From Candidatus Phoenicimicrobium oleiphilum (lineage in GTDB: Bacteria > Atribacterota > Phoenicimicrobiia > Phoenicimicrobiales > Phoenicimicrobiaceae), in NCBI GenBank assembly GCA_039638295.1, contig JBDIWJ010000005.1:416-64415 (forward strand): DNA of 64,000 bases, in the 5' to 3' direction. The position numbers were made by a program, and so were the translations under genes. Numbering within the stretch: position 1 is the first letter of the stretch; each line of letters starts with the position of its first letter. Shown one piece after another: positions 2,850-64,000 of this stretch. The notes beneath the pieces are model-generated. The model was not told the origin of the DNA. It searched no databases and saw nothing but the letters and a program-made list of their open reading frames with translations.

Positions 2850-4529
2850 TTAAACTTCTTTTGCTTCCTTTACCTGAAGCTCAGGTAGAGGGAACGAAAT
2901 TCCAGCTGATTTTGCTGAAATACTGGAAAATAGGTAAAGCAAAATTCCTACCAATATTATTCCTAAAGGCAACACTAAAGCAACAGACATGCCACTTCCC
3001 GCCAAAATATAGCCCACTACAGCAACTCCCGCAGCAGTTAGGGAATAAGGTACCTGAGTCTTAACATGATCTATATGGTCAGAACCAGAAAACATTGAAG
3101 ACATAATAGTAGTATCAGAAAGTGGTGAACAATGGTCTCCCATAACTGAACCGGTTAATACCGCAGATATGCCTAAAGGTAAAGGAACACCCAAAGCAAG
3201 GGCTAAAGGAATAGCAATAGGCATAGCTATAGCCATAGTCCCCCAAGAAGTACCAGTGGAAAAAGAAATTATATTGCAGATTATAAATATAACCATAGGT
3301 AGTAAAACGGGAGAGATAACCCCTTTAGCAGCATTTACTACATAAGGAGCAGTTCCAATTTCATCACAAACACTACCAATTGACCAAGCAGAAATTAAGA
3401 TTAAGTTAGCTAAAACCATCATCTTAGCACCATCTATAAAGGCATCCATCATATCAGCCAGGGTTCCAATCCCCTGGGCTTTATACATTATTATGGCAAC
3501 GATTACTGCAAATACAGCGCCCCACAAAAGAGCAGTCATAGCATCAGCATCAGCAATTGCAGTAGTAAATGATTCAGCAGAGGTCCCTCCTCCAGTCCAC
3601 CACATTCCGAAAATACTCACTCCTACCAGAACTATAATGGGAACAACCATATTTATGGTCTTTTGAGGAACGCCTTCTAATACCTTTAATTTACTCCCCC
3701 CAGAAAGTGGAGTTGCTCCATCTGCAAAGACTTTACCAGTTGTCCTTGTTCGATGTTCAGCTTTTAACATAGGACCATAATCTCTTTGAGATAAGGCAAC
3801 AAATAAGACTAATAATATTGCAAAGATACTGTAGAAACGATAAGGTATAGATTGTAAAAAGATGGTATAAGGAGTCAGGGATACCGAAGTACCTTCGATA
3901 GCATCACCGATAAGTCCCACCTCATAGCCAATCCAGGTAGAAATCAGAGCTAGAGAAGCAACTGGTGCTGCAGTAGAATCGACAATGTAAGAAAACTTTT
4001 CTCGAGAAATACCCAATTTGTCGGTCACTGGTCTAAAAGCATTTCCCACTATAGCAGTATTAGCATAATCATCAAAGAAAATTATTAACCCAAAGAGCCA
4101 AGCAGTAAATTGGCCGCCGCGAGCGGTTTTTACTTTATCGGTAATGCTTTTTACAAAGGCATAAGCCCCACCAGATAGGTAGATTAAACCGATAAGTCCT
4201 CCAACTACAAAGTCAAACAATAAAATAGTAGCATTCCAACTGTCAGCAGTATTATCTACCAGGTAACCTAGGGTTTGAGTAACCCCAGCTAAAGGATTCC
4301 AACCCGTCAGTATAGTAGCACCTATCCAGATACCAATAAAGAGTGAGGCTAAAACTTGCTTGGTGATAAAGCATAAAACTATGGCTACCAATGGTGGTAA
4401 TAGAGATAAGAAACCATAACTTGCTGCAGTTTCTTCTTCTGCAGCCCAGGCAATTTCAGATAAGATAAAGAAAATTACTATCGAAAAAATTAAAAGCAAT
4501 CCAATTCTATTCTTGTGCCATTGATACAT
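2850..4529 (-). CDS. NhaC-family Na+/H+ antiporter-type membrane transporter (candidate LysW-like lysine transporter)
   Basis: 559 aa polytopic membrane protein with NhaC-like repeat architecture; last gene of a co-directional block downstream of a lysine riboswitch. Confidence 0.55.
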   Translation of the reverse strand: MYQWHKNRIGLLLIFSIVIFFILSEIAWAAEEETAASYGFLSLLPPLVAIVLCFITKQVLASLFIGIWIGATILTGWNPLAGVTQTLGYLVDNTADSWNATILLFDFVVGGLIGLIYLSGGAYAFVKSITDKVKTARGGQFTAWLFGLIIFFDDYANTAIVGNAFRPVTDKLGISREKFSYIVDSTAAPVASLALISTWIGYEVGLIGDAIEGTSVSLTPYTIFLQSIPYRFYSIFAILLVLFVALSQRDYGPMLKAEHRTRTTGKVFADGATPLSGGSKLKVLEGVPQKTINMVVPIIVLVGVSIFGMWWTGGGTSAESFTTAIADADAMTALLWGAVFAVIVAIIMYKAQGIGTLADMMDAFIDGAKMMVLANLILISAWSIGSVCDEIGTAPYVVNAAKGVISPVLLPMVIFIICNIISFSTGTSWGTMAIAMPIAIPLALALGVPLPLGISAVLTGSVMGDHCSPLSDTTIMSSMFSGSDHIDHVKTQVPYSLTAAGVAVVGYILAGSGMSVALVLPLGIILVGILLYLFSSISAKSAGISFPLPELQVKEAKEV

Positions 4530-6043: not shown

Positions 6044-7348
6044 TCAAACTTTAGCTATTGCCTTCTCTAACACCTCTAAGGCCTCATCCAACTGCTCATC
6101 AGTAATCTCTAAAGAGACCAACATTCTCAAAACATTCTTGTTAATCCCTGCGCCAGCAATAAGTACTCCATTTTTTACACATTCCTGTATAACTTGAGCT
6201 GTCTCTTGGGTGGCTGGTTCTTTAGTCTTTCGGTCTTTTACCAGTTCTATAGCCATCATCGCCCCTATACCACGCACATCACCTACTATAGAATATCTAT
6301 CTTTCATCTTAAGAAAACGCTCTTTCAATCTTTCCCCAATCTTCAAGGCTCTTTCTAAGAGTTGTTCTTCTTCGATAATTTTTATCACCTCCAGGGCTGC
6401 CCGGCAGGCTAATGGATTACCTACATAGGTTCCACCAATACACCCGCCAGGAAGGGTATCGGTAATCTCTTTTTTGGTAATTACTGCCGAAAGAGGAAGG
6501 CCAGAAGCTAAAGACTTGCCCAGACAGATAAGGTCTGGCTCTATATTCCAGTTTTCTATGGCATAAAACTTTCCAGTCCGACCTATACCACTCTGAATCT
6601 CATCGGTGATAAGTAACATACCGTATTTCTCGGTCAATTCTCTTAAATATTCTAAAAATCCCTCCTGAGGGACATTAAATCCTCCTTCTCCCTGGATAGG
6701 TTCAACCACTATAGCAGCGACAGAGTCAGGGATTACAGTATTTACCAGTATCTTTTCAAAATCTTCTATATCAGCCATAGGATGAGAAGAACTGGGGAAA
6801 GGTAAGCGATATATCTCGGGGGCAAAGGGTCCGAAGTGGTATTTATAAGGCATAGCCTTGTGGGTCATAGTCATAGTAAGCAAAGTGCGACCATGGAAGG
6901 CATTTTCGAAGACAATAATAGCTGGTCTTTTGGTATGTGCCCTGGCAATCTTTACCGCATTTTCTATTGCCTCTGCTCCGGAGTTAAAAAAGGCGGCTGA
7001 CTTGGGAGTGCTCCCGGGGGCCAACTTAACTAATTTTTCAGCCAGTTCTACCAGAGGCTCGTAAGGGACAGCAGTAAAATCGGTATGCAGATATTTTTCT
7101 GCCTGGTCTTTAATAGCAGCTACCACTTTCTTGTGGGTATGGCCTACGGCCAGACATCCCCAGCCTCCAGTAAGATCGATTAATTGATTACCATCTACGT
7201 CAGTGACTAAAGCCCCCTCTCCATAGGCAATATAACAGGGGGAAAGAGAACCGCTCATAGGTTTGGCTACATACTTTTCTCTTTTTTTAGCAATTTCTTG
7301 AGATTTTGTTCCAGGTAGACTGGTTTTAAGAGAAATAAATTTACTCAT
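6044..7348 (-). CDS. Class-III PLP-dependent aminotransferase (GabT/acetylornithine/DABA aminotransferase family)
   Basis: Motifs ITDEIQSGIGRTGKFYA and LICLGKSLASGLPLSAV (PLP-lysine region) typical of class-III aminotransferases. Confidence 0.8.
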   Translation of the reverse strand: MSKFISLKTSLPGTKSQEIAKKREKYVAKPMSGSLSPCYIAYGEGALVTDVDGNQLIDLTGGWGCLAVGHTHKKVVAAIKDQAEKYLHTDFTAVPYEPLVELAEKLVKLAPGSTPKSAAFFNSGAEAIENAVKIARAHTKRPAIIVFENAFHGRTLLTMTMTHKAMPYKYHFGPFAPEIYRLPFPSSSHPMADIEDFEKILVNTVIPDSVAAIVVEPIQGEGGFNVPQEGFLEYLRELTEKYGMLLITDEIQSGIGRTGKFYAIENWNIEPDLICLGKSLASGLPLSAVITKKEITDTLPGGCIGGTYVGNPLACRAALEVIKIIEEEQLLERALKIGERLKERFLKMKDRYSIVGDVRGIGAMMAIELVKDRKTKEPATQETAQVIQECVKNGVLIAGAGINKNVLRMLVSLEITDEQLDEALEVLEKAIAKV

Positions 7349-7556
7349 TTAATCATTCTCCTTTAATCTAAATTTTTAATTAGTTAATAGTAAATAATCG
7401 CTGGTCGTTAGTTTAAAAATCAAAACTTTTTTCGTATAAATTATTGCTTTTTTACTCCATTTCGATTTTATATAAATCTTTTCCTGACAATCTTGTTAGA
7501 ATAAATATACTGTCTTTTAAACTTGTGCCCGTGAAAACGGGTAAAAGTATCCTTGT

Positions 7557-8857: not shown

Positions 8858-9099
8858 ATATTTTTCCTCCTTCTTTGGTTATTTAGTTATTAAAACAGTC
8901 GATAGTGAATAGTCGTTAGTCGTTAGTTTAAAACTCAAAACTTTTTCGTATAAGATATTGCTCTTAAAGTAGGGGTCGGATTTATTCGACCTGTTTTTAT
9001 TGCGGGTTCGATTAATGAGCACTTACGATAACAGGAAATTCCTATACCATTTAGTTAACTAGCTATCTTTAAGATGACATTTGCTAATAAAAAATCTAC

Positions 9100-9365
9100 C
9101 AAATAAAAAAGGCAATTAATGATAGAGCCTTCATTAATTGCCTAACTTTGTTCCCCCTAATTTAGATGAAGTACTCTATCTTGAGGTAGCGCTCCATCTA
9201 AATCGGGGGACAGATTTGATGACAGTCTTATAGTTATTCACTATAAGCCCAGCAAGAAGATTTTATCTGATCTTTCTTGCTTCGGCGGAAATACCTTTCT
9301 GGGCAAAGTTCTAAACTATTCACCCTTACTCATTATTATCCGCGCCTCTACCTTGTATTATTTTA
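9100..9365 (-). promoter_or_regulatory. Lysine riboswitch (L-box) with intrinsic-terminator expression platform
   Basis: On minus strand: GGTAGAGGCGCGG ... CGCCGAAGCAAG ... CTGGGCTTATAGTGAATAA ... AGACTGTCATC ... GGAGCGCTACCTC (L-box conserved blocks), then antiterminator GATAGAGTACTTCATC and terminator GGCAATTAATGA-AGGCTCTATC-ATTAATTGCC followed by TTTTTTATTT (9105-9142 on + strand). Confidence 0.8.
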
Positions 9366-9485: not shown

Positions 9486-10622
9486 TCACACTTTAATTAT
9501 ATTTTCTTTATAGAACACATTTCTTTTTTCTAATTCTTTCATTACCCTCTGATATACTTTATGTTCCCTGCCTATATATTCTGGAGGAGAAATCCCTTTA
9601 CGGGAATATTCTCCCTGAGCTACCAGGCGAGCCATAATTGCACAGGGAAAACCAGTCGTACGTGACATAGAGGTAGCTTCCTCATTCTCGTCATAATAAT
9701 CTAATAAATCATAGATATAACATAGTCTTTTTTCTTCTTTCTTACCTTGAACAATTACCCTCATCACTGTTAACTCTCTTTCTCCTTCTTTTAATCCCCA
9801 TTTGGAAAAAAGCAATTTAGAGGCAACATCTATAGGGCTGACTTTTACCCCTCCTGCTTCTATAGGTTTTTCATTAAAAAATCCTGTCTCTCTTAACATC
9901 CGCATCTTTTCCGCATACCCTGGATAACGCAAGGTCTTCTCTCTCATAGAGGGAATTTTAATGGTGTAAAGTAGACTACGAAGTCCATCAGTATTAAAAG
10001 CTTCTAAAGTACCAATTCCTGGTAAATCAACCAATTCAAGATCAGAAAGCGCGGGTTTTTCTACAATTTTTCCGCATTCAATTAATCTTGCCGGTCTTAT
10101 ATATTCTTCTATAACATCTTTAGGAGACCAGGCAATTTTATATTCATAAGGCCATTCTCTTATTACTGGAAGCCCTCCTACTAAAATAGTAGCACTCTCG
10201 GTTTTATCCAACAGGCTATAGACATAACCTACAATCATATGACTCATCCCCGGAGCTACTCCCATATCCACCACAGCAGTTACTCCTCTACTTTTAGCAA
10301 GCCCATCCAGGCTTAAAGTATCTTCAGCCATAAATGATATATCAACTATGTTCTTACCAGCTTCAATAACCGACCGCAACATATTAAATCCTAAAAACCC
10401 TGGAACAGCACCAATTACAATATCTTGATCAGCAACTATCTTTTTAATATCACTCGAAACAGATAAATCTGCTTTTACACCTCTTATTCCTGCATCTTTT
10501 GTTAACTTATCCAATCTTTTTTCATCAATATCTGCTACAGTTACTTGAATATTTTTATCTTTTGCTAAATCTTTGGCAATTAATCCGCCTACCAAACCAC
10601 AACCCAGTACTATTGCTTTCAT
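9486..10622 (-). CDS. Saccharopine dehydrogenase-family NAD(P)-binding oxidoreductase (paralog 2)
   Basis: N-terminal MKAIVLGCGLVGGLIAKDLA Rossmann fold, 378 aa, same family as 7613-8857 but divergent. Confidence 0.7.
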   Translation of the reverse strand: MKAIVLGCGLVGGLIAKDLAKDKNIQVTVADIDEKRLDKLTKDAGIRGVKADLSVSSDIKKIVADQDIVIGAVPGFLGFNMLRSVIEAGKNIVDISFMAEDTLSLDGLAKSRGVTAVVDMGVAPGMSHMIVGYVYSLLDKTESATILVGGLPVIREWPYEYKIAWSPKDVIEEYIRPARLIECGKIVEKPALSDLELVDLPGIGTLEAFNTDGLRSLLYTIKIPSMREKTLRYPGYAEKMRMLRETGFFNEKPIEAGGVKVSPIDVASKLLFSKWGLKEGERELTVMRVIVQGKKEEKRLCYIYDLLDYYDENEEATSMSRTTGFPCAIMARLVAQGEYSRKGISPPEYIGREHKVYQRVMKELEKRNVFYKENIIKV

Positions 10623-30425: not shown

Positions 30426-30714
30426 TTCCTATAGACATATTCTTTCGTCCCATCAAGTCTCGTTCGCAACTAAACGGGCGTATGCAATACGCCCCTACTT
30501 CTGGATTCTGGCTACTGACTTCTATTTCTTTCATTCTTTACTATATACTAATTATCTTATCCGCTATAGTATATACTAATGACTATTCACTATTCGCTAA
30601 TGACTAAATTGACGGGGCAAATATCTAACCGGTAAACTACTATGTAAGCCAATTGGTAAATTGGTAGATTGGCGAATTGGTCAATTTATTTTTCTTTTTT
30701 CGATTCGAAAGTAA

Positions 30715-39755: not shown

Positions 39756-40631
39756 TTAATTGGTAAATTGGTGAATCGATGAATCGGCTAATTTTTTAAA
39801 GGCCCGTTTGAATAAGAGCCCGGAGATATATCGGCGATATTCTTCAGATGCTCGAATATCACTAATAGGTTTAACTTCTTCGCGCACTCTATCTATAGCC
39901 TCTTCAACCAATTTATCATTTATTTCTTTATTTTTTAAAAAACTCTCTGCACCAGTCAATCTTACGGGCGTAGGAGCTACAGAGCCAGCAGCAATCCGAA
40001 TTTGATTAATTTTATTTTGTCTAACTTCTAAATTTACTGCTACCGTTGCAATGGAAATAGCCATCGCTTTCCTCTGTCCTATTTTAATAAAATAGCCATT
40101 TTTATTTACATCACTTTGTTCAAATTCGATTCCCACAATCATTTCATCATCCTGCAAGATTGTTTCACCTGGGCCCACAAAAAAATCTTTTAGCTTAACT
40201 TCTCTCTTATCTCTAGTGCTCTCTATTTTTATAAGAGCATCAAGAGTTAAAAGTGGTATGGCTATATCAGCTGCAGGTGAAGCAGTTACTAAATTTCCAC
40301 CTATAGTGGCAGTGTTCCTTACCAGTGGGTCAGCAAATTCTTGGGCAGCTTGGGTTAATACCTTATACTCTTTTGATGTAATATCTGAATAAATCAATTC
40401 ATTAATAGTAGTGAGGGGACCTAAGAATATTTTATCTTCTTTTTGGTAAATACCCTTTAATTGTTCGATATTAGTAATATCTATTAAAACCTTAGCTTTT
40501 ATTTCTTTATCCCTTATATTGGGTAAAACATTGGAACAACCTGCAACTATACAAGCATTAGACTTCTCTTTTTGTAAAATTTCTAAAACTTCATCTTTTG
40601 TCTTAGGAGAAATATATTTAAATAGGCTCAT
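39756..40631 (-). CDS. FAD-binding (CO-dehydrogenase-flavoprotein-like) medium subunit of molybdenum hydroxylase 1
   Basis: FAD_binding_5 N-terminus (AGCSNVLP) plus CO_deh_flav_C, 291 aa. Confidence 0.8.
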   Translation of the reverse strand: MSLFKYISPKTKDEVLEILQKEKSNACIVAGCSNVLPNIRDKEIKAKVLIDITNIEQLKGIYQKEDKIFLGPLTTINELIYSDITSKEYKVLTQAAQEFADPLVRNTATIGGNLVTASPAADIAIPLLTLDALIKIESTRDKREVKLKDFFVGPGETILQDDEMIVGIEFEQSDVNKNGYFIKIGQRKAMAISIATVAVNLEVRQNKINQIRIAAGSVAPTPVRLTGAESFLKNKEINDKLVEEAIDRVREEVKPISDIRASEEYRRYISGLLFKRAFKKLADSSIHQFTN

Positions 40632-59914: not shown

Positions 59915-60001
59915 TTTATTGTCCCTCCTTTTTAAAATTTTTCTTTATATTTATTTGTATTCGACAAAAGACCTAAAAATCCTTCCTATTTGAGAAATAT
60001 A

Positions 60002-61291
60002 TTATGGTAAAAAAGATAACCACCGGGGAGCAGATATGATTAAAATTTTATTCTTTTGATTTGTGACTATTTTCCCGACATGTTTTTTATTTACTAGTTG
60101 AATAGCAGGTATGTTGAGTTTATTCTGGAATTTTATCAAGTTATTTGAGATATTTTCACCTGATAACTTACATTCGATCAACAGTATAGGATAATGATCC
60201 TTACAAATAAGAAAATCAATCTCTTCTTTTTCTTTATTACGAATATAATGCAGGGAGAAATTTGCTAATCCCAAATCGTTCCAATTCAAAATTGCCCGAT
60301 ATAACTCTAAAGCAATCATATTTTCAAAACGAATACCTCTATCATTTATCTGGGCATAATCAAAAAGATAAATCTTCTTTTCCTTTTTAATTGCCCGAGG
60401 AATTTTATGTGTCCATGGTAATATTCGAAATATCAAATAATGGATTTCAAATACTTCAAGCCAGGTTTTGACACTGTCCACGGATACCTGGACATCTGTA
60501 TTTAATGAACTTAAAGAGAGAGGATTACCCACTTTTAGAGGTAAGAGTGAATATAAAATTTCCAGGGAATCAAACTTTTTAATTTGGGTCAAATCTCGAA
60601 TATCCTCCCGAATTAACTGGTGCTGATAATTATTGGACCACAATCGGTAAAAATCCTTTTTGCCTTTCAAGAATGGTTCAGGAAATCCACTAAGTTCAAA
60701 AAGATCATCCCATAAACTATAATCCGTTTTATTATCTTCTTGAAAATGAAGAGGATGTTTAACGAAAGAAGGTATAGAGTTCTGGTAATGCGTCAATTCC
60801 GAATAGGTAAAAGGTAGCAAGTGGAATTTCATATATCTGCCAGCCAAGGAATCTCCACCTTTTTGATACAAATCTAATCTACCGCTGCCGGTAACCAGAA
60901 ACTTGTATTCCTTGGCAAATCTATCATAAACTCCTTTGAGATAATTCTTCCAATTGCTGTATTTATGAATTTCGTCAAAAATAACCAGCGGGATCGATTC
61001 ATCCCTCCGGTCGACTTTCTCAAAAAAGTAAGGATTTTGAATCAACTCTCTCTTGCTGGGAATATCATCCCAGTTAAAGTAAACTTGGTTGCTAAAATCC
61101 CCGGCTATCATCTTTGCCAGGGTCGTCTTCCCGCTTTGCCTGGGACCAGACAAAAATACCATATTTTTATAAGATGATAGCTTTTGCCATATTTTTTGAT
61201 AAATGATTCTTTCTTTCATAGTAACTATAATACTAACTAATTCGAAAAAAGTCAAGACTTTTTTCGATAAGACTCGGAAAAAGTCATTCAA
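60002..61291 (-). CDS. AAA+ ATPase of the COG1373/DUF4143 family (true start probably MKERII at ~61219)
   Basis: Walker A GPRQSGKTT, Walker B VIFDEIH. Confidence 0.6.
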   Translation of the reverse strand: MNDFFRVLSKKVLTFFELVSIIVTMKERIIYQKIWQKLSSYKNMVFLSGPRQSGKTTLAKMIAGDFSNQVYFNWDDIPSKRELIQNPYFFEKVDRRDESIPLVIFDEIHKYSNWKNYLKGVYDRFAKEYKFLVTGSGRLDLYQKGGDSLAGRYMKFHLLPFTYSELTHYQNSIPSFVKHPLHFQEDNKTDYSLWDDLFELSGFPEPFLKGKKDFYRLWSNNYQHQLIREDIRDLTQIKKFDSLEILYSLLPLKVGNPLSLSSLNTDVQVSVDSVKTWLEVFEIHYLIFRILPWTHKIPRAIKKEKKIYLFDYAQINDRGIRFENMIALELYRAILNWNDLGLANFSLHYIRNKEKEEIDFLICKDHYPILLIECKLSGENISNNLIKFQNKLNIPAIQLVNKKHVGKIVTNQKNKILIISAPRWLSFLP

Positions 61292-61306
61292 GGATTTAAA
61301 TAAATT

Positions 61307-61583
61307 TTATATAAGATAGTAAGTCTGAAAGCCTTTTTTTATAAGGGTTTTGGAGGTAGATTGCGAAATAATGCGTATAAGAAAAAATTTTTGCCTTTGC
61401 CATACTTTATCCCTCGAAAATTACCTTTTTTTAACCAATTTTTTCATACTCTCAAATGCTGAAAGTGGCTATTTATAAGGGGTTTTAAGATTTTAGAGGA
61501 GTAAAAATACCTCAAAATCAGGGTAGTTAAATAGCTACACTTTTCTAAATTTAAACGCTAAAAAAGGCACTTTACGTGTGGTT
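61307..61583. repeat. Copy 1 of a ~277-bp direct repeat (ends ...GGCACTTTACGTGTGGTT); internally contains two CTGAAAG-N-TTTATAAGGGTTTT sub-repeats
   Basis: ~88% identical to 63343-63618 by eye alignment. Confidence 0.7.
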
Positions 61584-61874
61584 CTTGTGTCTTTAGTCCA
61601 ATTTGGGGAAAGCCCTTAAATATCCATACGGTTTTTTCTTAATTTAAAGTTCTATTACATATCGAAACCTAGTCACTCTTACTCACATTATTATATATGG
61701 GTAACAGAAATTTTTTTATAACATTCATTACATATGCAAATTCAATATCCTGTTGGCCTATCTTTTTTAGAAACAATTTCCATTGATTTATTCTATTATT
61801 ATCTTCGATAAAGTCTTTCTTAAAAACCTGATCAAATTTTAAAATATCTGTTCCTCTTCTCTTAAAAGTTTCTA

Positions 61875-62529
61875 CTATGGCCTTCTGTAAAAAATCTCTA
61901 TTAAATTTTTTTCAGATAGCAAAATAAAAATGTCGTAAAAATCTTTCATTCTGCTGTTCAGCTCTCCCAGAGAAACAATGGCCTCAAATTTTTCTGCTAT
62001 AACAGATTCAAAAGAATACATTTTTATTTTAGGATAATCCATATCCAGAAATACAGGATAATCAGCTATAATAACTTCCGGCATAACAATATCATTAAAA
62101 CCTATATCTACCCAAAGCATTTCCTTAGCTTTCCCAAGATGCCCAGTTAATTTTACTCTTACTCCTTCATATTTAGCTTCTTTCCTGATCTCTTCAACTA
62201 AAACAGAATTAGAATCAAATACAACGCTATCATCGTATTCAATCTTACATATATTTTTAAATATCTCTTTTATATTCTCCATATCATTTGATATTTGATA
62301 AGCCAGAAAATCTATATCTCTGGTCGGCCTACCCGTAAATTCAGACATTGAAAATAATAACAACCCACCTTTTAATATAAAATATCTTTATACTCAGAAA
62401 CACTTAAACGATATAATAATCTCTCTTGCATGTATAACTGCAGGATAAGATTAAAAGTTTTTTTGTAATCTTTGGCAATATTTTTAAGCCTTGCTATAAC
62501 TGAAGCCTCCATATTTCTTACTTCATTTC
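61875..62529 (-). pseudogene. AbiEii/AbiGii-family nucleotidyltransferase toxin (type IV TA), frameshifted into two pieces
   Basis: N-terminal piece (62371-62529; MRNEVRNMEASVIARLKNIAKDYKKTF...SVSEYKDILY*) ends at a TAA; an alternative reading frame continues (F)ILKGGLLLFSMSEFTGRPTRDIDFLA into ORF 61875-62363; an indel in the ATATTTTATATTAAAAGG run. Confidence 0.6.
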
Positions 62530-63141
62530 TCATACAAGTACCTCTATATATTTTTGAACGATTTCCTTAACCTTTGCTTTGGCCGCATAATTCATAAGTT
62601 TAGAAATATTTTTATCTCTTCTTTTAACATATTCCTTGATACTTTCTATAATAATATCTTTACTGATTTTATCTTCATATCTTAGGCAATCACATATAGT
62701 TTTTTCAATATTATATATCTTAATAATATTCCCATTTATATCTATTTTTTCCACTCCATCCATATAATATTTATCAGAAAAATAATAAAGTTTTATCGGC
62801 GGGTAATCAGGTAGTTTTATATTATAATTTCTCCTGACCGCTATCGTATATTCCCCCGGGGTATAAGTTGTAAGCTCATGGTAAGCCAGGGCTGATACAA
62901 GGCAAATAATTCCATGTTGAACAATTTTGGATACATTAATCAGTTCTTCTTCAACATCAAATTTAGCATCCTTCCATCTATACAAACCCCGCTTTATTCT
63001 TTCAATAGCATCCTCATTAATTAAATCTCTCAGGTATTTTCTATTTGTGCCTTTAGAACTTAGGTCTTTTGTTCTAATATAACCATGATTAACATAAAAA
63101 ACTTCTTTGATTTTCTCTTTAATTTTATTTTTCAATTTCAT
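62530..63141 (-). CDS. AbiEi-family antitoxin/transcriptional regulator (type IV TA)
   Basis: N-terminal GYIRTKDL...IERIKRGLYRW pattern of AbiEi; immediately upstream of AbiEii with overlapping stop/start. Confidence 0.55.
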   Translation of the reverse strand: MKLKNKIKEKIKEVFYVNHGYIRTKDLSSKGTNRKYLRDLINEDAIERIKRGLYRWKDAKFDVEEELINVSKIVQHGIICLVSALAYHELTTYTPGEYTIAVRRNYNIKLPDYPPIKLYYFSDKYYMDGVEKIDINGNIIKIYNIEKTICDCLRYEDKISKDIIIESIKEYVKRRDKNISKLMNYAAKAKVKEIVQKYIEVLV

Positions 63142-63342
63142 TCCCTTGCTTTTACAAAACTACGGCATTATGCTTTATTGCCGTAGATTTGTATATTTCT
63201 TTCCTTATTATACTTCTCTTCTCTATTTTTTCAAGTATGCATCTAATATTTTAAATATATTTTTATAGGAAGCATCAAGCGACCCCATAATTTAACATTA
63301 ATAAAATTATAATATAAATAAGCTTTTTGGCAGGGATAAACT

Positions 63343-63618
63343 TTATATAAGATAGTAAGTCTGAAAGCCTTATTTTATAAGGGTTTTAGGGACAGATTGC
63401 GAGATTTTGTTTATATGAAGAAATTTTTACCCTGGCTATAGTTTATCCCTCGAAAATTGCTCTTTTTTAACCAATTTTTTCACCCTTCTAAATACTGAAA
63501 GTGGCTATTTATAAGGGTTTTAAGATTTTATAGGAGTAAAAATACCCCAAAATTAGGGTAGTTAAATGGCTAATTTTTCGAAAATTTAAACGCTAAAAAA
63601 GGCACTTTCCGTGTGGTT
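63343..63618. repeat. Copy 2 of the ~277-bp direct repeat
   Basis: Aligned to 61307-61583. Confidence 0.7.
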
Positions 63619-63736
63619 TAAAACTTCCTAAAGGGATTTAATTTTCATTTTCTAAATAACGCTTAAATCCTTATAAATAAAAGCTTACATATACTAAATG
63701 AAGCAAGTATGATATGTATTATCGATTCGTTTCTTA

Positions 63737-63943
63737 TTAAAAGGCATCTTCGTGTTTTACTATAGCCAGAATATATACTTCCTCTCTTTCTTTTCTATAT
63801 ATACACCTATAGTTTTTATTGATGCTAAATTCCCATATATTAATAGTGCCTTTTACTGTTTTATTTCGTAAAGAAGGATGCTGCGGATTCTTTATAAGCA
63901 TTTCTAAACACCAATAAAATTTTCCTTTTATAGGTTCTGACAA
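63737..63943 (-). CDS. RelE/ParE-family type II toxin
   Basis: 68 aa; C-terminal YRCIYRKEREEVYILAIVKHED matches the RelE/ParE signature. Confidence 0.5.
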   Translation of the reverse strand: MSEPIKGKFYWCLEMLIKNPQHPSLRNKTVKGTINIWEFSINKNYRCIYRKEREEVYILAIVKHEDAF

Positions 63944-64000
63944 CTTTTTCTTGTTTTTAAGTTCCTTTATTAGATGATCTGGAATATTTATTTTTTTAAT

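What the first reader, a model, noticed from the sequence alone, without database searches (positions are those of the whole stretch)
61307..63618. ~277-bp direct repeats delimiting a TA cassette in a gene-repeat-gene-repeat-gene array
Two ~88%-identical 277-bp noncoding repeats (61307-61583 and 63343-63618) alternate with co-oriented defence/addiction genes: RelE/ParE toxin, repeat, AbiEi-AbiEii, repeat, COG1373 ATPase. Each repeat ends in GGCACTTTaCGTGTGGTT and contains an internal duplicated CTGAAAG-N-TTTATAAGGGTTTT unit. The alternating arrangement resembles a cassette array (integron-like or other site-specific recombination hotspot) rather than a simple duplication. The AbiEii toxin inside is frameshifted, which would fit cassette decay.
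Basis: seen in the sequence. Interest (0 to 1): 0.6.

Follow-up and report, generated by a model that had tools for sequence, protein, structure and literature searches.

The report
Dispersed noncoding repeat pair flanking AbiE
The two ~284-base repeats are real, but they are two copies of a previously undescribed non-coding repeat family scattered through intergenic DNA of Atribacterota genomes, often at the edges of toxin-antitoxin and defence gene patches, and they are not the recombination sites of an integron-like cassette array.

Summary
Two direct copies (61300-61583 and 63336-63618) are 87% identical and bracket a frameshifted abiEi-abiEii module, between mazE-parE and an AAA_14/DUF4143 ATPase, all on the minus strand.

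The integron-like reading does not hold. There are only two copies at the locus and no recombinase in the 19 kb held around it. There are no attC core sites and no bulged hairpin. The repeat ends are truncation points of copy 1, not a crossover site.

The repeats belong to a noncoding family of about 50 members, found only in Atribacterota/Caldatribacteriota contigs. It is absent from Rfam, phage, plasmid and viral collections. Members are modular, built on ~29-nt imperfect palindromes (CTGAAAgCCTTAT-n3-ATAAGGgTTTCAG). They occur as ~0.3-0.5 kb units or ~1 kb inverted double units, in about 35 unrelated intergenic contexts, and are mostly antisense to flanking genes.

About a third of annotated neighbours are toxin-antitoxin, restriction-modification or Abi-type genes. 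Four loci show direct pairs 1.7-2.0 kb apart around small cargo. Related species carry a family copy at the same nadE-upstream spot.

Best reading: a BIME/BOX/MITE-like modular repeat that marks, and probably promotes, recombination at variable gene patches. Function is unproven and interest is moderate.

The parts
61300..61583 (+). Repeat copy R1. It is a diverged family member truncated at both ends, holding palindrome module M1 and module M2. Family orientation is the window + strand, antisense to the genes.
   Evidence: 87% identity to R2; profile positions 120-400 only; more private changes than R2
63316..63704 (+). Repeat copy R2, a fuller 'short-form' family member. The R1-like core is 63336-63618. 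Family homology continues about 20 nt to the left and through a decayed M3 palindrome to the right.
   Evidence: nhmmer (63333-63704); alignment to L082/L039
61325..61351 (+). Module M1 of R1, an imperfect palindrome (CTGAAAGCCTT..TATAAGGGTTTT).
61459..61486 (+). Module M2 of R1 (CTGAAAGTGGCTATTTATAAGGGGTTTT). It keeps only the 3' half of the palindrome and is the most conserved block of the family.
63361..63387 (+). Module M1 of R2. It contains the exact inner palindrome CCTTAT-N3-ATAAGG.
63495..63521 (+). Module M2 of R2.
63662..63689 (+). Decayed module M3 to the right of R2 (CTTAAATCCTTATAAATAAAAGCTT).
   Evidence: inverted repeats I4 and I7
61566..61583 (+). Conserved 3' motif GGCACTTTACGTGTGGTT of R1. 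The R2 equivalent is 63601-63618. In most family members it reads AAAGGCAC-N5-GTGCG.
61687..63259 (-). abiEi-abiEii module with its own promoter-like site (63234-63207). It is a 1573-nt unit, 89-93% identical to copies in four other genomic contexts, with sharp ends that exclude the repeats.
61678..62533 (-). abiEii pseudogene, with two 1-nt deletions near 62384 and 61913.
62530..63141 (-). abiEi (AbiEi_4 domain), intact, 203 aa.
60002..61219 (-). AAA_14 + DUF4143 (COG1373-type) ATPase. It is inserted between R1 and the hyp198 upstream region, relative to the related locus L082.
63737..64000 (-). parE-type toxin gene, whose start is cut by the window end. mazE, tRNA-Ser(TGA) and serS follow just outside the window.
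59929..59997 (+). Short module (TTCGACAAAAGA..TTAAAAATCCTTC..) between the ATPase stop and hyp198. It also lies next to family copies in L082, L087, L022 and L077.

Best explanation
R1 and R2 are two old, diverged copies of a lineage-specific, non-coding, modular intergenic repeat family of Atribacterota/Caldatribacteriota. The basic unit is about 0.3-0.5 kb and carries three co-oriented ~29-nt imperfect palindromes (M1, M2, M3). A ~1-kb form is an inverted double unit. Copies are dispersed in many unrelated intergenic sites, nearly always antisense to the local genes and starting just after a gene's stop codon. They concentrate at the borders of variable patches of toxin-antitoxin, Abi and restriction-modification genes. 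Shown here: the family exists, is non-coding, is dispersed, is orientation-biased and is associated with accessory genes. Inferred: the repeats act as portable stretches of homology, with internal direct and inverted modules, at which recombination, deletion and module insertion occur. On this view accessory modules such as abiE and the ATPase pile up beside them. The pair here would then arise from an ancestral single copy upstream of hyp198/nadE (the state seen in L082), duplicated when the abiE-bearing segment was recombined in. The pair is not a working site-specific cassette array. How the family disperses is unresolved: it could be transposition in trans or recombination together with neighbouring modules.
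For: A family of about 50 copies (>100 bits) was found in Atribacterota contigs and nowhere else searched (negative results). It is non-coding: stops occur in all six frames, no Pfam hit was found, and 1-nt indels separate close members. The modular anatomy and the short and long forms are shown. Neighbouring proteins fall into 60 distinct clusters, which means about 35 or more different contexts. Copies that are 93-98% identical sit between unrelated flanks. Nine of 46 copies are cut by contig ends, which points to a multicopy repeat that breaks assemblies. The right neighbour is antisense in 24 of 31 contexts and the left neighbour in 21 of 29. Twelve of 37 Pfam-annotated neighbours are toxin-antitoxin, defence or restriction-modification types: Fic x2, MqsR, MazE, AbiEi, AlbA_2, HATPase_c_4, Polbeta NTase, HNH, PLD-SNF2, AAA_14 and a type III methylase. 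There is direct evidence of recombination at or within copies. L041 is L038 with an exact deletion between M2 and M3. L038 and L053 share the left flank (aspartokinase) and the repeat but have different right flanks. Truncated copies abut the abiE module in L086 and L091 at different positions. A family copy sits upstream of hyp198/nadE in the window, L082, L087-L090 and L077, while the gene content around it differs. Direct pairs 1.7-2.0 kb apart and 83-88% identical surround small cargo in L049, L056 and L075. Distances fit ((R1,R2),L082) with a long R1 branch.
Against: No transposition hallmarks were found: no terminal inverted repeats, no target duplications and no clean filled-versus-empty site pair. 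Recombination as the cause of the accessory-gene association is an inference; the association could simply reflect where insertions are tolerated. R2 is as conserved between species (84% to L082) as neighbouring coding DNA (hyp198 84%, nadE 73%). That suggests selection for an unknown function, or concerted evolution, rather than a passive role. The strong strand bias is unexplained. The M palindromes are not scattered alone in the 64-kb window, unlike classical REPs. All 22 contigs of this strain show the same arrangement, so there is no sign of current excision. Family sampling was seeded with the M2 motif, so M2 conservation is partly an ascertainment effect. Only L082 and L087 were found independently of that motif.
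Confidence: 0.55

Rival explanations
1. The repeats are the recombination sites of an integron-like or other site-specific cassette array. Each gene-plus-repeat unit would be a cassette, inserted and excised by a dedicated recombinase.
For: The layout alternates repeat, gene, repeat in one orientation. Three other loci have direct pairs around small cargo. A defence patch between a partial and a full copy is seen in L087. Clusters of attC sites without a nearby integrase are known in other bacteria (general knowledge).
Against: There is no attC core-site pair or bulged hairpin, and the size is 284-1000 nt. No recombinase lies in the 19-kb locus, and the rve gene seen in one strain is an unrelated IS about 5 kb upstream. 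No locus has more than two copies, and none follows beyond the window. Homology ends within pairs differ from locus to locus, and here they are truncation points of R1. The abiE module ends 76 and 103 nt from the repeats and occurs without full repeats elsewhere. Most family members are solitary, between ordinary genes.
Confidence: 0.05
2. The repeat is a gene for, or a cis-acting part of, a structured or regulatory RNA. One version is a small RNA transcribed from the family + strand, starting near M2 or the GGCAC-N5-GTGC motif and ending at the M3 hairpin, antisense to the 3' end of the neighbouring gene. Another version is a 3'-UTR element on the other strand.
For: Cross-species conservation equals that of coding DNA. 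The orientation relative to genes is fixed. The M1 hairpin keeps pairing through two compensatory changes, and 95% of cells pair in the predicted + strand structure. M3 is a hairpin followed by a run of U in most members. A GNRA hairpin is inserted in a predicted loop in L039/L052. The 3' motif fits the sigma-54 GG-N10-GC core in most members (the consensus is from general knowledge).
Against: Minimum free energy is no better than shuffled sequence on either strand as RNA (z = +0.56 and +0.17). The alignment fold is weak (-9.3 kcal/mol). Pairing barely exceeds the shuffle control (95.1% versus 94.7%) and most variation is wobble-tolerant transitions against invariant G or U. No Rfam family matches even at E up to 5. 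The window copies lack a good M3 terminator and have GT instead of GC at the putative -12 position. Many members are truncated or rearranged at different points.
Confidence: 0.17
3. The family is a non-autonomous transposable element (MITE-like or PATE-like), moved in trans by a transposase encoded elsewhere. One candidate is a Y1 (IS200/IS605/RAYT-type) enzyme that recognises the imperfect palindromes as single-strand hairpins. That mechanism would also explain the strand bias.
For: Near-identical copies lie between unrelated flanks. The co-oriented imperfect palindromes carry a conserved G.G (or C.C) mismatch. The orientation bias is as expected for single-strand transposition coupled to replication (mechanism from general knowledge of IS608). 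A Y1_Tnp gene exists in a related genome (L083). Deletion derivatives of various lengths exist.
Against: No autonomous copy with a transposase between family ends was found. No conserved target motif or target duplication appears at the ends. The Y1_Tnp gene in L083 is not flanked by M palindromes. No clean empty site was recovered. Copy density is low in the window.
Confidence: 0.18
4. The pair is a plain local duplication of an intergenic or promoter region, with no wider meaning.
For: There are only two copies in the window, both upstream of co-oriented genes.
Against: About 50 related copies exist in other genomes and contexts. The copies are 13% diverged. The best promoter-like sites of abiEi and the ATPase lie outside the repeats. 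The repeat is antisense to, and directly downstream of, genes in most contexts, including convergent gene pairs where it cannot be a promoter (L038).
Confidence: 0.03

Closest known systems
BIMEs / REP clusters of enterobacteria and pseudomonads
   Same: Both are extragenic and non-coding. Both are built from imperfect palindromes combined in mosaic arrangements, in direct and inverted orientation. Both often lie just after stop codons and are substrates for rearrangement.
   Different: Here the palindromes (~29 nt) are spaced 105-145 nt apart inside a conserved 0.3-1 kb unit and were not seen as free-standing copies in the window. Copy density looks low. No flanking RAYT gene was identified. 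There is no GTAG-type 5' tetranucleotide.
BOX elements of Streptococcus pneumoniae, and similar modular repeats (bcr repeats of Bacillus cereus, ERIC)
   Same: All are lineage-specific, modular (made of sub-elements in variable number), non-coding and intergenic. All are a few hundred bases long, with deletion and duplication variants.
   Different: There is no sequence relationship. The units here are longer. They show a marked association with toxin-antitoxin and defence gene patches and a strong strand bias.
MITEs / PATEs (non-autonomous IS derivatives, for example IS200/IS605-derived palindrome-associated elements)
   Same: Dispersed, near-identical copies sit between unrelated flanks. There are co-oriented subterminal hairpins with a conserved mismatch, a strand bias and a family of deletion derivatives.
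   Different: No terminal inverted repeats, no target-site duplication or target motif, no parent element with a transposase, and no empty site were found.
Integron attC sites and integrase-less attC clusters (CALINs)
   Same: Repeats alternate with co-oriented small accessory genes, including toxin-antitoxin genes, and the repeat follows the 3' end of the gene.
   Different: There are no R''/R' core sites, no L''/L' bulged hairpin and no integrase. The size is 284-1000 nt rather than 57-141 nt. There are never more than two copies per locus. Junction positions vary, and most copies are solitary.
tRNA-linked genomic islets and defence-island hotspots
   Same: The patch (mazE-parE, abiE, ATPase) lies directly downstream of tRNA-Ser(TGA), between conserved genes (serS and hyp198-nadE). 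Its content varies between relatives.
   Different: There is no integrase and no duplicated tRNA 3' end. The recurring landmark is the repeat family rather than an att site.

Membership tests
Integron attC site / cassette array | Core sites R'' (RYYYAAC) and R' (GTTRRRY) as the ends of an imperfect inverted repeat | tested here: not met
   A regex scan of both strands of 61250-61700 and 63290-63740 found no pair. The background rate was 4 of 284 windows.
Integron attC site / cassette array | The single strand folds into one long bulged hairpin; site length about 57-141 nt | tested here: not met
   RNA and DNA folds of both strands give branched, weak structures. RNA z-scores were +0.17 and +0.56; DNA z-scores were -1.2 to -2.7 against mononucleotide shuffles. 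The unit is 284 nt here and up to about 1 kb elsewhere.
Integron attC site / cassette array | An adjacent intI-type tyrosine recombinase with attI and Pc, or at least an array of several sites | tested here: not met
   No recombinase lies in the 19-kb locus L001. Only two copies are present and none follows beyond the window end. No locus in the family set has more than two.
REP / BIME | Short imperfect palindromes in extragenic DNA, combined in mosaics | tested here: met
   M modules read CTGAAAgCCTTAT-n3-ATAAGGgTTTCAG. Three lie in one orientation and three in the other in the long form. There are compensatory changes in M1.
REP / BIME | High copy number of the palindrome throughout the genome | tested here: inconclusive
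   Within the 64-kb window the palindrome occurs only inside the two repeats. The whole genome could not be scanned.
REP / BIME | A cognate RAYT (Y1 transposase) gene flanked by the palindromes | tested here: inconclusive
   A Y1_Tnp gene is present in a related contig (L083), but its upstream region lacks M palindromes. The source genome was not searchable.
MITE (non-autonomous DNA transposon) | Terminal inverted repeats and target-site duplications | tested here: not met
   Ends were aligned for five copies that are 93-95% identical and sit in different contexts. No inverted termini beyond a weak ACAGrGGGA resemblance were seen, and no duplicated flank.
MITE (non-autonomous DNA transposon) | Presence/absence polymorphism with precise junctions | tested here: inconclusive
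   The aspartokinase-downstream site holds a copy in L038, L041 and L053 and none in L093-L100, but the downstream flank differs in every lineage, so no clean empty site exists.
Known RNA families (Rfam 15) | A match to a curated covariance model | tested here: not met
   The gathering-threshold scan of the window found only a lysine riboswitch elsewhere. E-value scans of the region and of eight family loci gave only chance-level hits on the repeats.
tRNA-linked integrative island | An integrase gene next to the tRNA, and a direct repeat of the tRNA 3' end at the far border | tested here: not met
   tRNA-Ser(TGA) lies at L001:7069-7156. There is no integrase and no second copy of the tRNA 3' end in L001 or the window.

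The most novel reading that the evidence does not exclude
The repeat family is the boundary element of a previously undescribed gene-shuffling system in Atribacterota that needs no adjacent integrase. Units of 0.3-1 kb with co-oriented palindromes would be bound by an unknown trans-acting protein, or used as single-strand hairpins. They would direct the insertion, exchange and loss of small defence and toxin-antitoxin modules at fixed chromosomal hotspots, such as the region downstream of tRNA-Ser and upstream of nadE. That would explain the recurrent direct pairs 1.7-2.0 kb apart, the fixed polarity and the coding-level conservation.
Probability: 0.12. Interest if true: 0.7.

Novelty: new member of a known kind. 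Interest (0 to 1): 0.35.

Why it matters
Atribacterota are abundant in subsurface and bioreactor communities, but few are cultured and little is known of their genome dynamics. This repeat family has no match in Rfam or in the other collections searched, and two literature searches found nothing on it. It gives a sequence landmark for variable, defence-rich regions in their fragmented metagenome-assembled genomes. It also explains some assembly breaks. If the repeat proves to promote module exchange, it would be a simple, recombinase-independent route to building defence islands. If it proves to be transcribed, it would be a new conserved non-coding RNA of a candidate phylum. As the evidence stands, it is one more lineage-specific modular intergenic repeat, which is an ordinary class of feature.

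Tried and rejected
- **Integron attC:** rejected. Core-site regex and RNA/DNA folding were negative.
- **Third copy or recombinase beyond the window:** none was found in the source contig.
- **Known RNA family:** none matched at gathering or at E up to 5.
- **Significant RNA structure:** minimum free energy z-scores, RNAalifold and pair counts with controls gave no significant support.
- **Protein-coding or decayed gene:**
  - An ORF reading KALYNKGF...KVAIYKGF runs through M1 and M2 in some members. It is broken by stops and 1-nt indels in others.
  - A six-frame Pfam scan of a long form was empty.
- **Duplicated promoter:** the best sigma-70-like sites lie outside the repeats.
- **Mosaic R1/R2 pattern expected from a single crossover with an L082-like incoming copy:** not seen. 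L082 is simply closer to R2 along the whole length.
- **CRISPR leader or degenerate array:** module spacing of 105-145 nt and mixed orientation do not fit.
- **Viral, plasmid or phage origin:** no matches.
- **Literature on Atribacterota repeats or integrons:** nothing relevant.
- **Empty-site search downstream of aspartokinase:** relatives lack the repeat, but their downstream flanks all differ, so no junction could be defined.
- **tRNA-Ser att duplication:** none.
- **ATPase gene as cargo inside a long-form element:** the shared 69-nt piece is a short module that also lies next to copies without the ATPase, so this idea was not pursued.
Full report
**1. The observation**

The window holds two direct copies, R1 at 61300-61583 (284 nt) and R2 at 63336-63618 (283 nt). 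They are 87% identical with a single 1-nt indel, and BLAST gives E about 1e-94. No other copy is in the 64 kb, whether by seed-and-extend repeat finding or by nhmmer with two family profiles.

All the genes are on the minus strand:
- parE, from 63737 to the window end, with mazE just outside
- abiEi, 62530-63141
- abiEii
- an AAA_14 + DUF4143 ATPase, 60002-61219

Against an intact 289-aa relative, abiEii has two 1-nt deletions near 62384 and 61913 and is read in three frames.

**2. What lies beyond the window**

The exact AbiEi protein is on 22 public contigs, all with the identical arrangement. The longest contig extends 7.8 kb past the window end. In gene direction the order is MMPL, archease, rtcB, serS, tRNA-Ser(TGA), mazE, parE, R2, abiE, R1, ATPase, hyp198, nadE.

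- There is no third repeat copy.
- There is no integrase or recombinase in the 19 kb. One strain has an unrelated rve-type IS about 5 kb upstream.
- There is no duplicated tRNA 3' end.

The source is a Candidatus Atribacteria/Caldatribacteriota MAG.

**3. Direct test of the integron reading**

- Neither strand of either repeat region holds an RYYYAAC...GTTRRRY pair.
- Folding as RNA or DNA gives branched, weak structures, not one long bulged hairpin.
- The unit is far longer than an attC site.

**4. The repeats belong to a family**

A motif scan of one genome per species returned mostly chance hits. It also returned five true relatives, three in Atribacterota MAGs and two on short contigs binned with other phyla. 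A scan of metagenome contigs with the M2 core gave 41 more loci. Profile searches recognise about 50 copies above 100 bits, 46 of them non-identical.

Searches outside the phylum found nothing:
- Rfam, at gathering threshold or at E up to 5
- viral contigs
- plasmid and phage records
- two literature searches

The family is non-coding. All six frames of a long member are full of stops and have no Pfam similarity. Close members differ by 1-nt indels.

**5. Anatomy**

The recurring sub-element is a ~29-nt imperfect palindrome, CTGAAAgCCTTAT-n3-ATAAGGgTTTCAG, with a conserved G.G (or C.C) mismatch.

- A basic unit of about 0.34-0.5 kb carries three of these in one orientation (M1, M2, M3; spacing about 131 and 145 nt). 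M2 keeps only the 3' half. The unit also carries a conserved AAAGGCAC-N5-GTGCG motif between M2 and M3.
- A long form of about 0.8-1.0 kb adds three palindromes in the opposite orientation. It is weakly self-complementary over about 400 nt, so it is an inverted double unit.
- Other small palindromes are inserted at variable places: TGTCATTCCCGCG-GNRA-CGCGGGAATGACA and AATAGGAACAG...CTGTTCCTATT.

The window copies are the central part of a basic unit. R2 aligns to the family over about 63316-63704, including a decayed M3. R1 stops at both ends exactly where the R1/R2 identity stops. The 'ends' of the repeat pair are therefore truncation points of R1, not a shared crossover site.

**6. Contexts**

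- The genes next to family copies fall into 60 distinct clusters, which means about 35 or more different intergenic sites.
- Copies 93-98% identical to each other lie between unrelated flanks.
- Nine of 46 copies are cut by contig ends, as expected of a multicopy repeat.
- Orientation is biased. The gene on the right of the family + strand is antisense in 24 of 31 non-redundant contexts, and the gene on the left in 21 of 29. Read in gene direction, the element usually begins just after a stop codon. This includes convergent gene pairs, where it cannot be a promoter (L038).
- Of 37 neighbours with a Pfam hit, 12 are toxin-antitoxin, Abi, restriction-modification or similar: Fic x2, MqsR, MazE, AbiEi, AlbA_2, HATPase_c_4, Polbeta NTase, HNH, PLD-SNF2, AAA_14 and a type III methylase. 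The rest are ordinary metabolic genes.
- Three further loci show direct pairs 1.7-1.9 kb apart and 83-88% identical around small cargo antisense to the repeat: L049 (membrane protein plus ABM), L056 (C_GCAxxG) and L075 (HNH). No locus has more than two copies.

**7. The locus in relatives**

| Locus | Relation to the window | Arrangement (gene direction) |
|---|---|---|
| L082 (Caldatribacteriota) | hyp198 85% identical | One family copy between pheA and hyp198. The window has the ATPase gene inserted between R1 and the hyp198 upstream region. |
| L087-L090 | another relative | DEAD helicase, partial copy, hsdM-fic-HTH-x-abiEi-abiEii, long-form copy, nadE |
| L077 | another relative | A copy next to nadE |
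| L083 | another relative | No copy |

A family copy upstream of hyp198/nadE is therefore shared by several lineages, while the genes around it change.

R2 is 84% identical to the L082 copy. That equals the hyp198 coding DNA (84%) and exceeds nadE (73%). L082 is closer to R2 than to R1 at most informative sites along the whole length, with no mosaic pattern. The distances fit a duplication in the window's lineage followed by faster decay of R1.

**8. The abiE module moves independently of the repeat**

Window 61687-63259 (1573 nt) is 89-93% identical to abiE modules in L084, L086, L087 and L091. The ends are sharp, lie 76 and 103 nt away from R2 and R1, and the surroundings differ in each case. 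Hundreds of AbiEi variants 81-97% identical sit on mostly short contigs. In L086 and L091 the module abuts family fragments truncated at different positions. This argues for recombination at or near the repeats, but not at a fixed site.

**9. Evidence for rearrangement at and inside copies**

- L041 equals L038 with a precise deletion between M2 and M3.
- L038 and L053 share the aspartokinase flank and the repeat but have different right flanks.
- Close aspartokinase relatives (88-91% DNA identity) lack the repeat, and each has a different downstream gene.
- No target duplication, terminal inverted repeat or clean empty site was found.

**10. RNA tests**

- RNA minimum free energies are no better than shuffled sequence on either strand.
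- The alignment fold is weak, at -9.3 kcal/mol.
- On the predicted + strand structure, 95.1% of cells pair against 94.7% in shuffles. Only three pairs show changes on both sides, two of them in the M1 hairpin.
- Most variation is transitions opposite an invariant G or U, which is uninformative.

An RNA role is neither supported nor excluded.

**11. Interpretation**

The best-supported reading is a lineage-specific modular intergenic repeat, closest in kind to BIME/REP mosaics, BOX-type elements and MITE-like repeats. It sits at, and probably contributes to, recombination-prone borders of accessory-gene patches.

Shown here:
- the family exists
- it is non-coding and modular
- it is dispersed and strand-biased
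- it is enriched next to toxin-antitoxin and defence genes
- a copy recurs at the nadE-upstream spot
- deletions and flank switches occur at copies

Inferred:
- the repeats act as portable homology for exchanging modules
- the pair here arose when the abiE segment was recombined in beside an ancestral single copy

The dispersal mechanism and any cellular function are unknown. The coding-level conservation and the strand bias are not explained by a purely passive element. They keep the RNA reading (about 0.17) and the trans-mobilised element reading (about 0.18) alive. The integron-like reading is about 0.05.

**12. Caveats**

- The metagenome set was seeded with the M2 word, so M2 conservation is inflated. 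Only L082 and L087-L090 were found independently.
- Neighbour genes were called with a simple ORF rule.
- Some contigs are assigned to other phyla, probably by mis-binning.

**13. Verdict**

This is a new member of a known kind of feature, of moderate interest.

Noticed in passing
L001:7069-7156, which is 640-726 nt beyond the window end: A tRNA-Ser(TGA) gene lies between serS and mazE. The whole accessory patch (mazE-parE, R2, abiE, R1, ATPase) therefore sits directly downstream of a tRNA gene, with no integrase and no duplicated tRNA end.
   Followed up: partly
window 61687-63259: The abiEi-abiEii module is a sharply bounded 1573-nt unit. Copies 89-93% identical occur in at least four other genomic contexts, and hundreds of AbiEi variants 81-97% identical sit on short contigs. 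It behaves as a frequently exchanged module in its own right.
   Followed up: partly
window 61566-61583 and 63601-63618; family alignment A3 columns about 310-327: The conserved motif AAAGGCAC-N5-GTGCG fits the sigma-54 -24/-12 core (GG-N10-GC) in most family members. The two window copies have GT instead of GC. The motif is also a 4-bp hairpin. Whether these bacteria use it as a promoter was not tested.
   Followed up: no
L064, L071, L056-L058, L040, L039/L052, and L083:5260-5300: Several other small repeat types populate Atribacterota intergenic DNA. They include GC-rich palindromes with GNRA loops (TGTCATTCCCGCG-GAAA-CGCGGGAATGACA), AATAGGAACAG...CTGTTCCTATT hairpins and ATGGGGACAG...CTGTCCCCAT pairs. 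They are inserted at variable positions in and beside family copies.
   Followed up: no
L064:2560-2726; L049:6888-7832; L083:5341-6024: A group II intron D1-D4 match lies about 200 nt from a long-form copy. An IS110-type transposase lies 2.2 kb from a repeat pair. A Y1_Tnp (IS200/RAYT-like) gene is present in a related contig that has no family copy.
   Followed up: no
L041 versus L038; L038 versus L053: L041 carries the L038 copy with an exact deletion between palindromes M2 and M3. L038 and L053 share the aspartokinase flank and the repeat but have different genes on the other side.
   Followed up: partly
window 9179-9358 (- strand): A full-length lysine riboswitch (Rfam RF00168, 111.5 bits).
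   Followed up: no
window 7348-7431 and 8863-8946; 30627-30698 and 39758-39797: An 84-nt direct repeat (74% identical) lies near the lysine riboswitch region. There are also clusters of AATTGGTAAATTGG-type short repeats. None is related to the finding.
   Followed up: no
window 59929-59997; L082 about 9870-9940; L087:8664-8731 and 3427-3493: A short module (TTCGACAAAAGA..TTAAAAATCCTTCTTTTTT) recurs next to family copies and upstream of hyp198/nadE in several lineages. It may be a promoter or terminator piece.
   Followed up: partly
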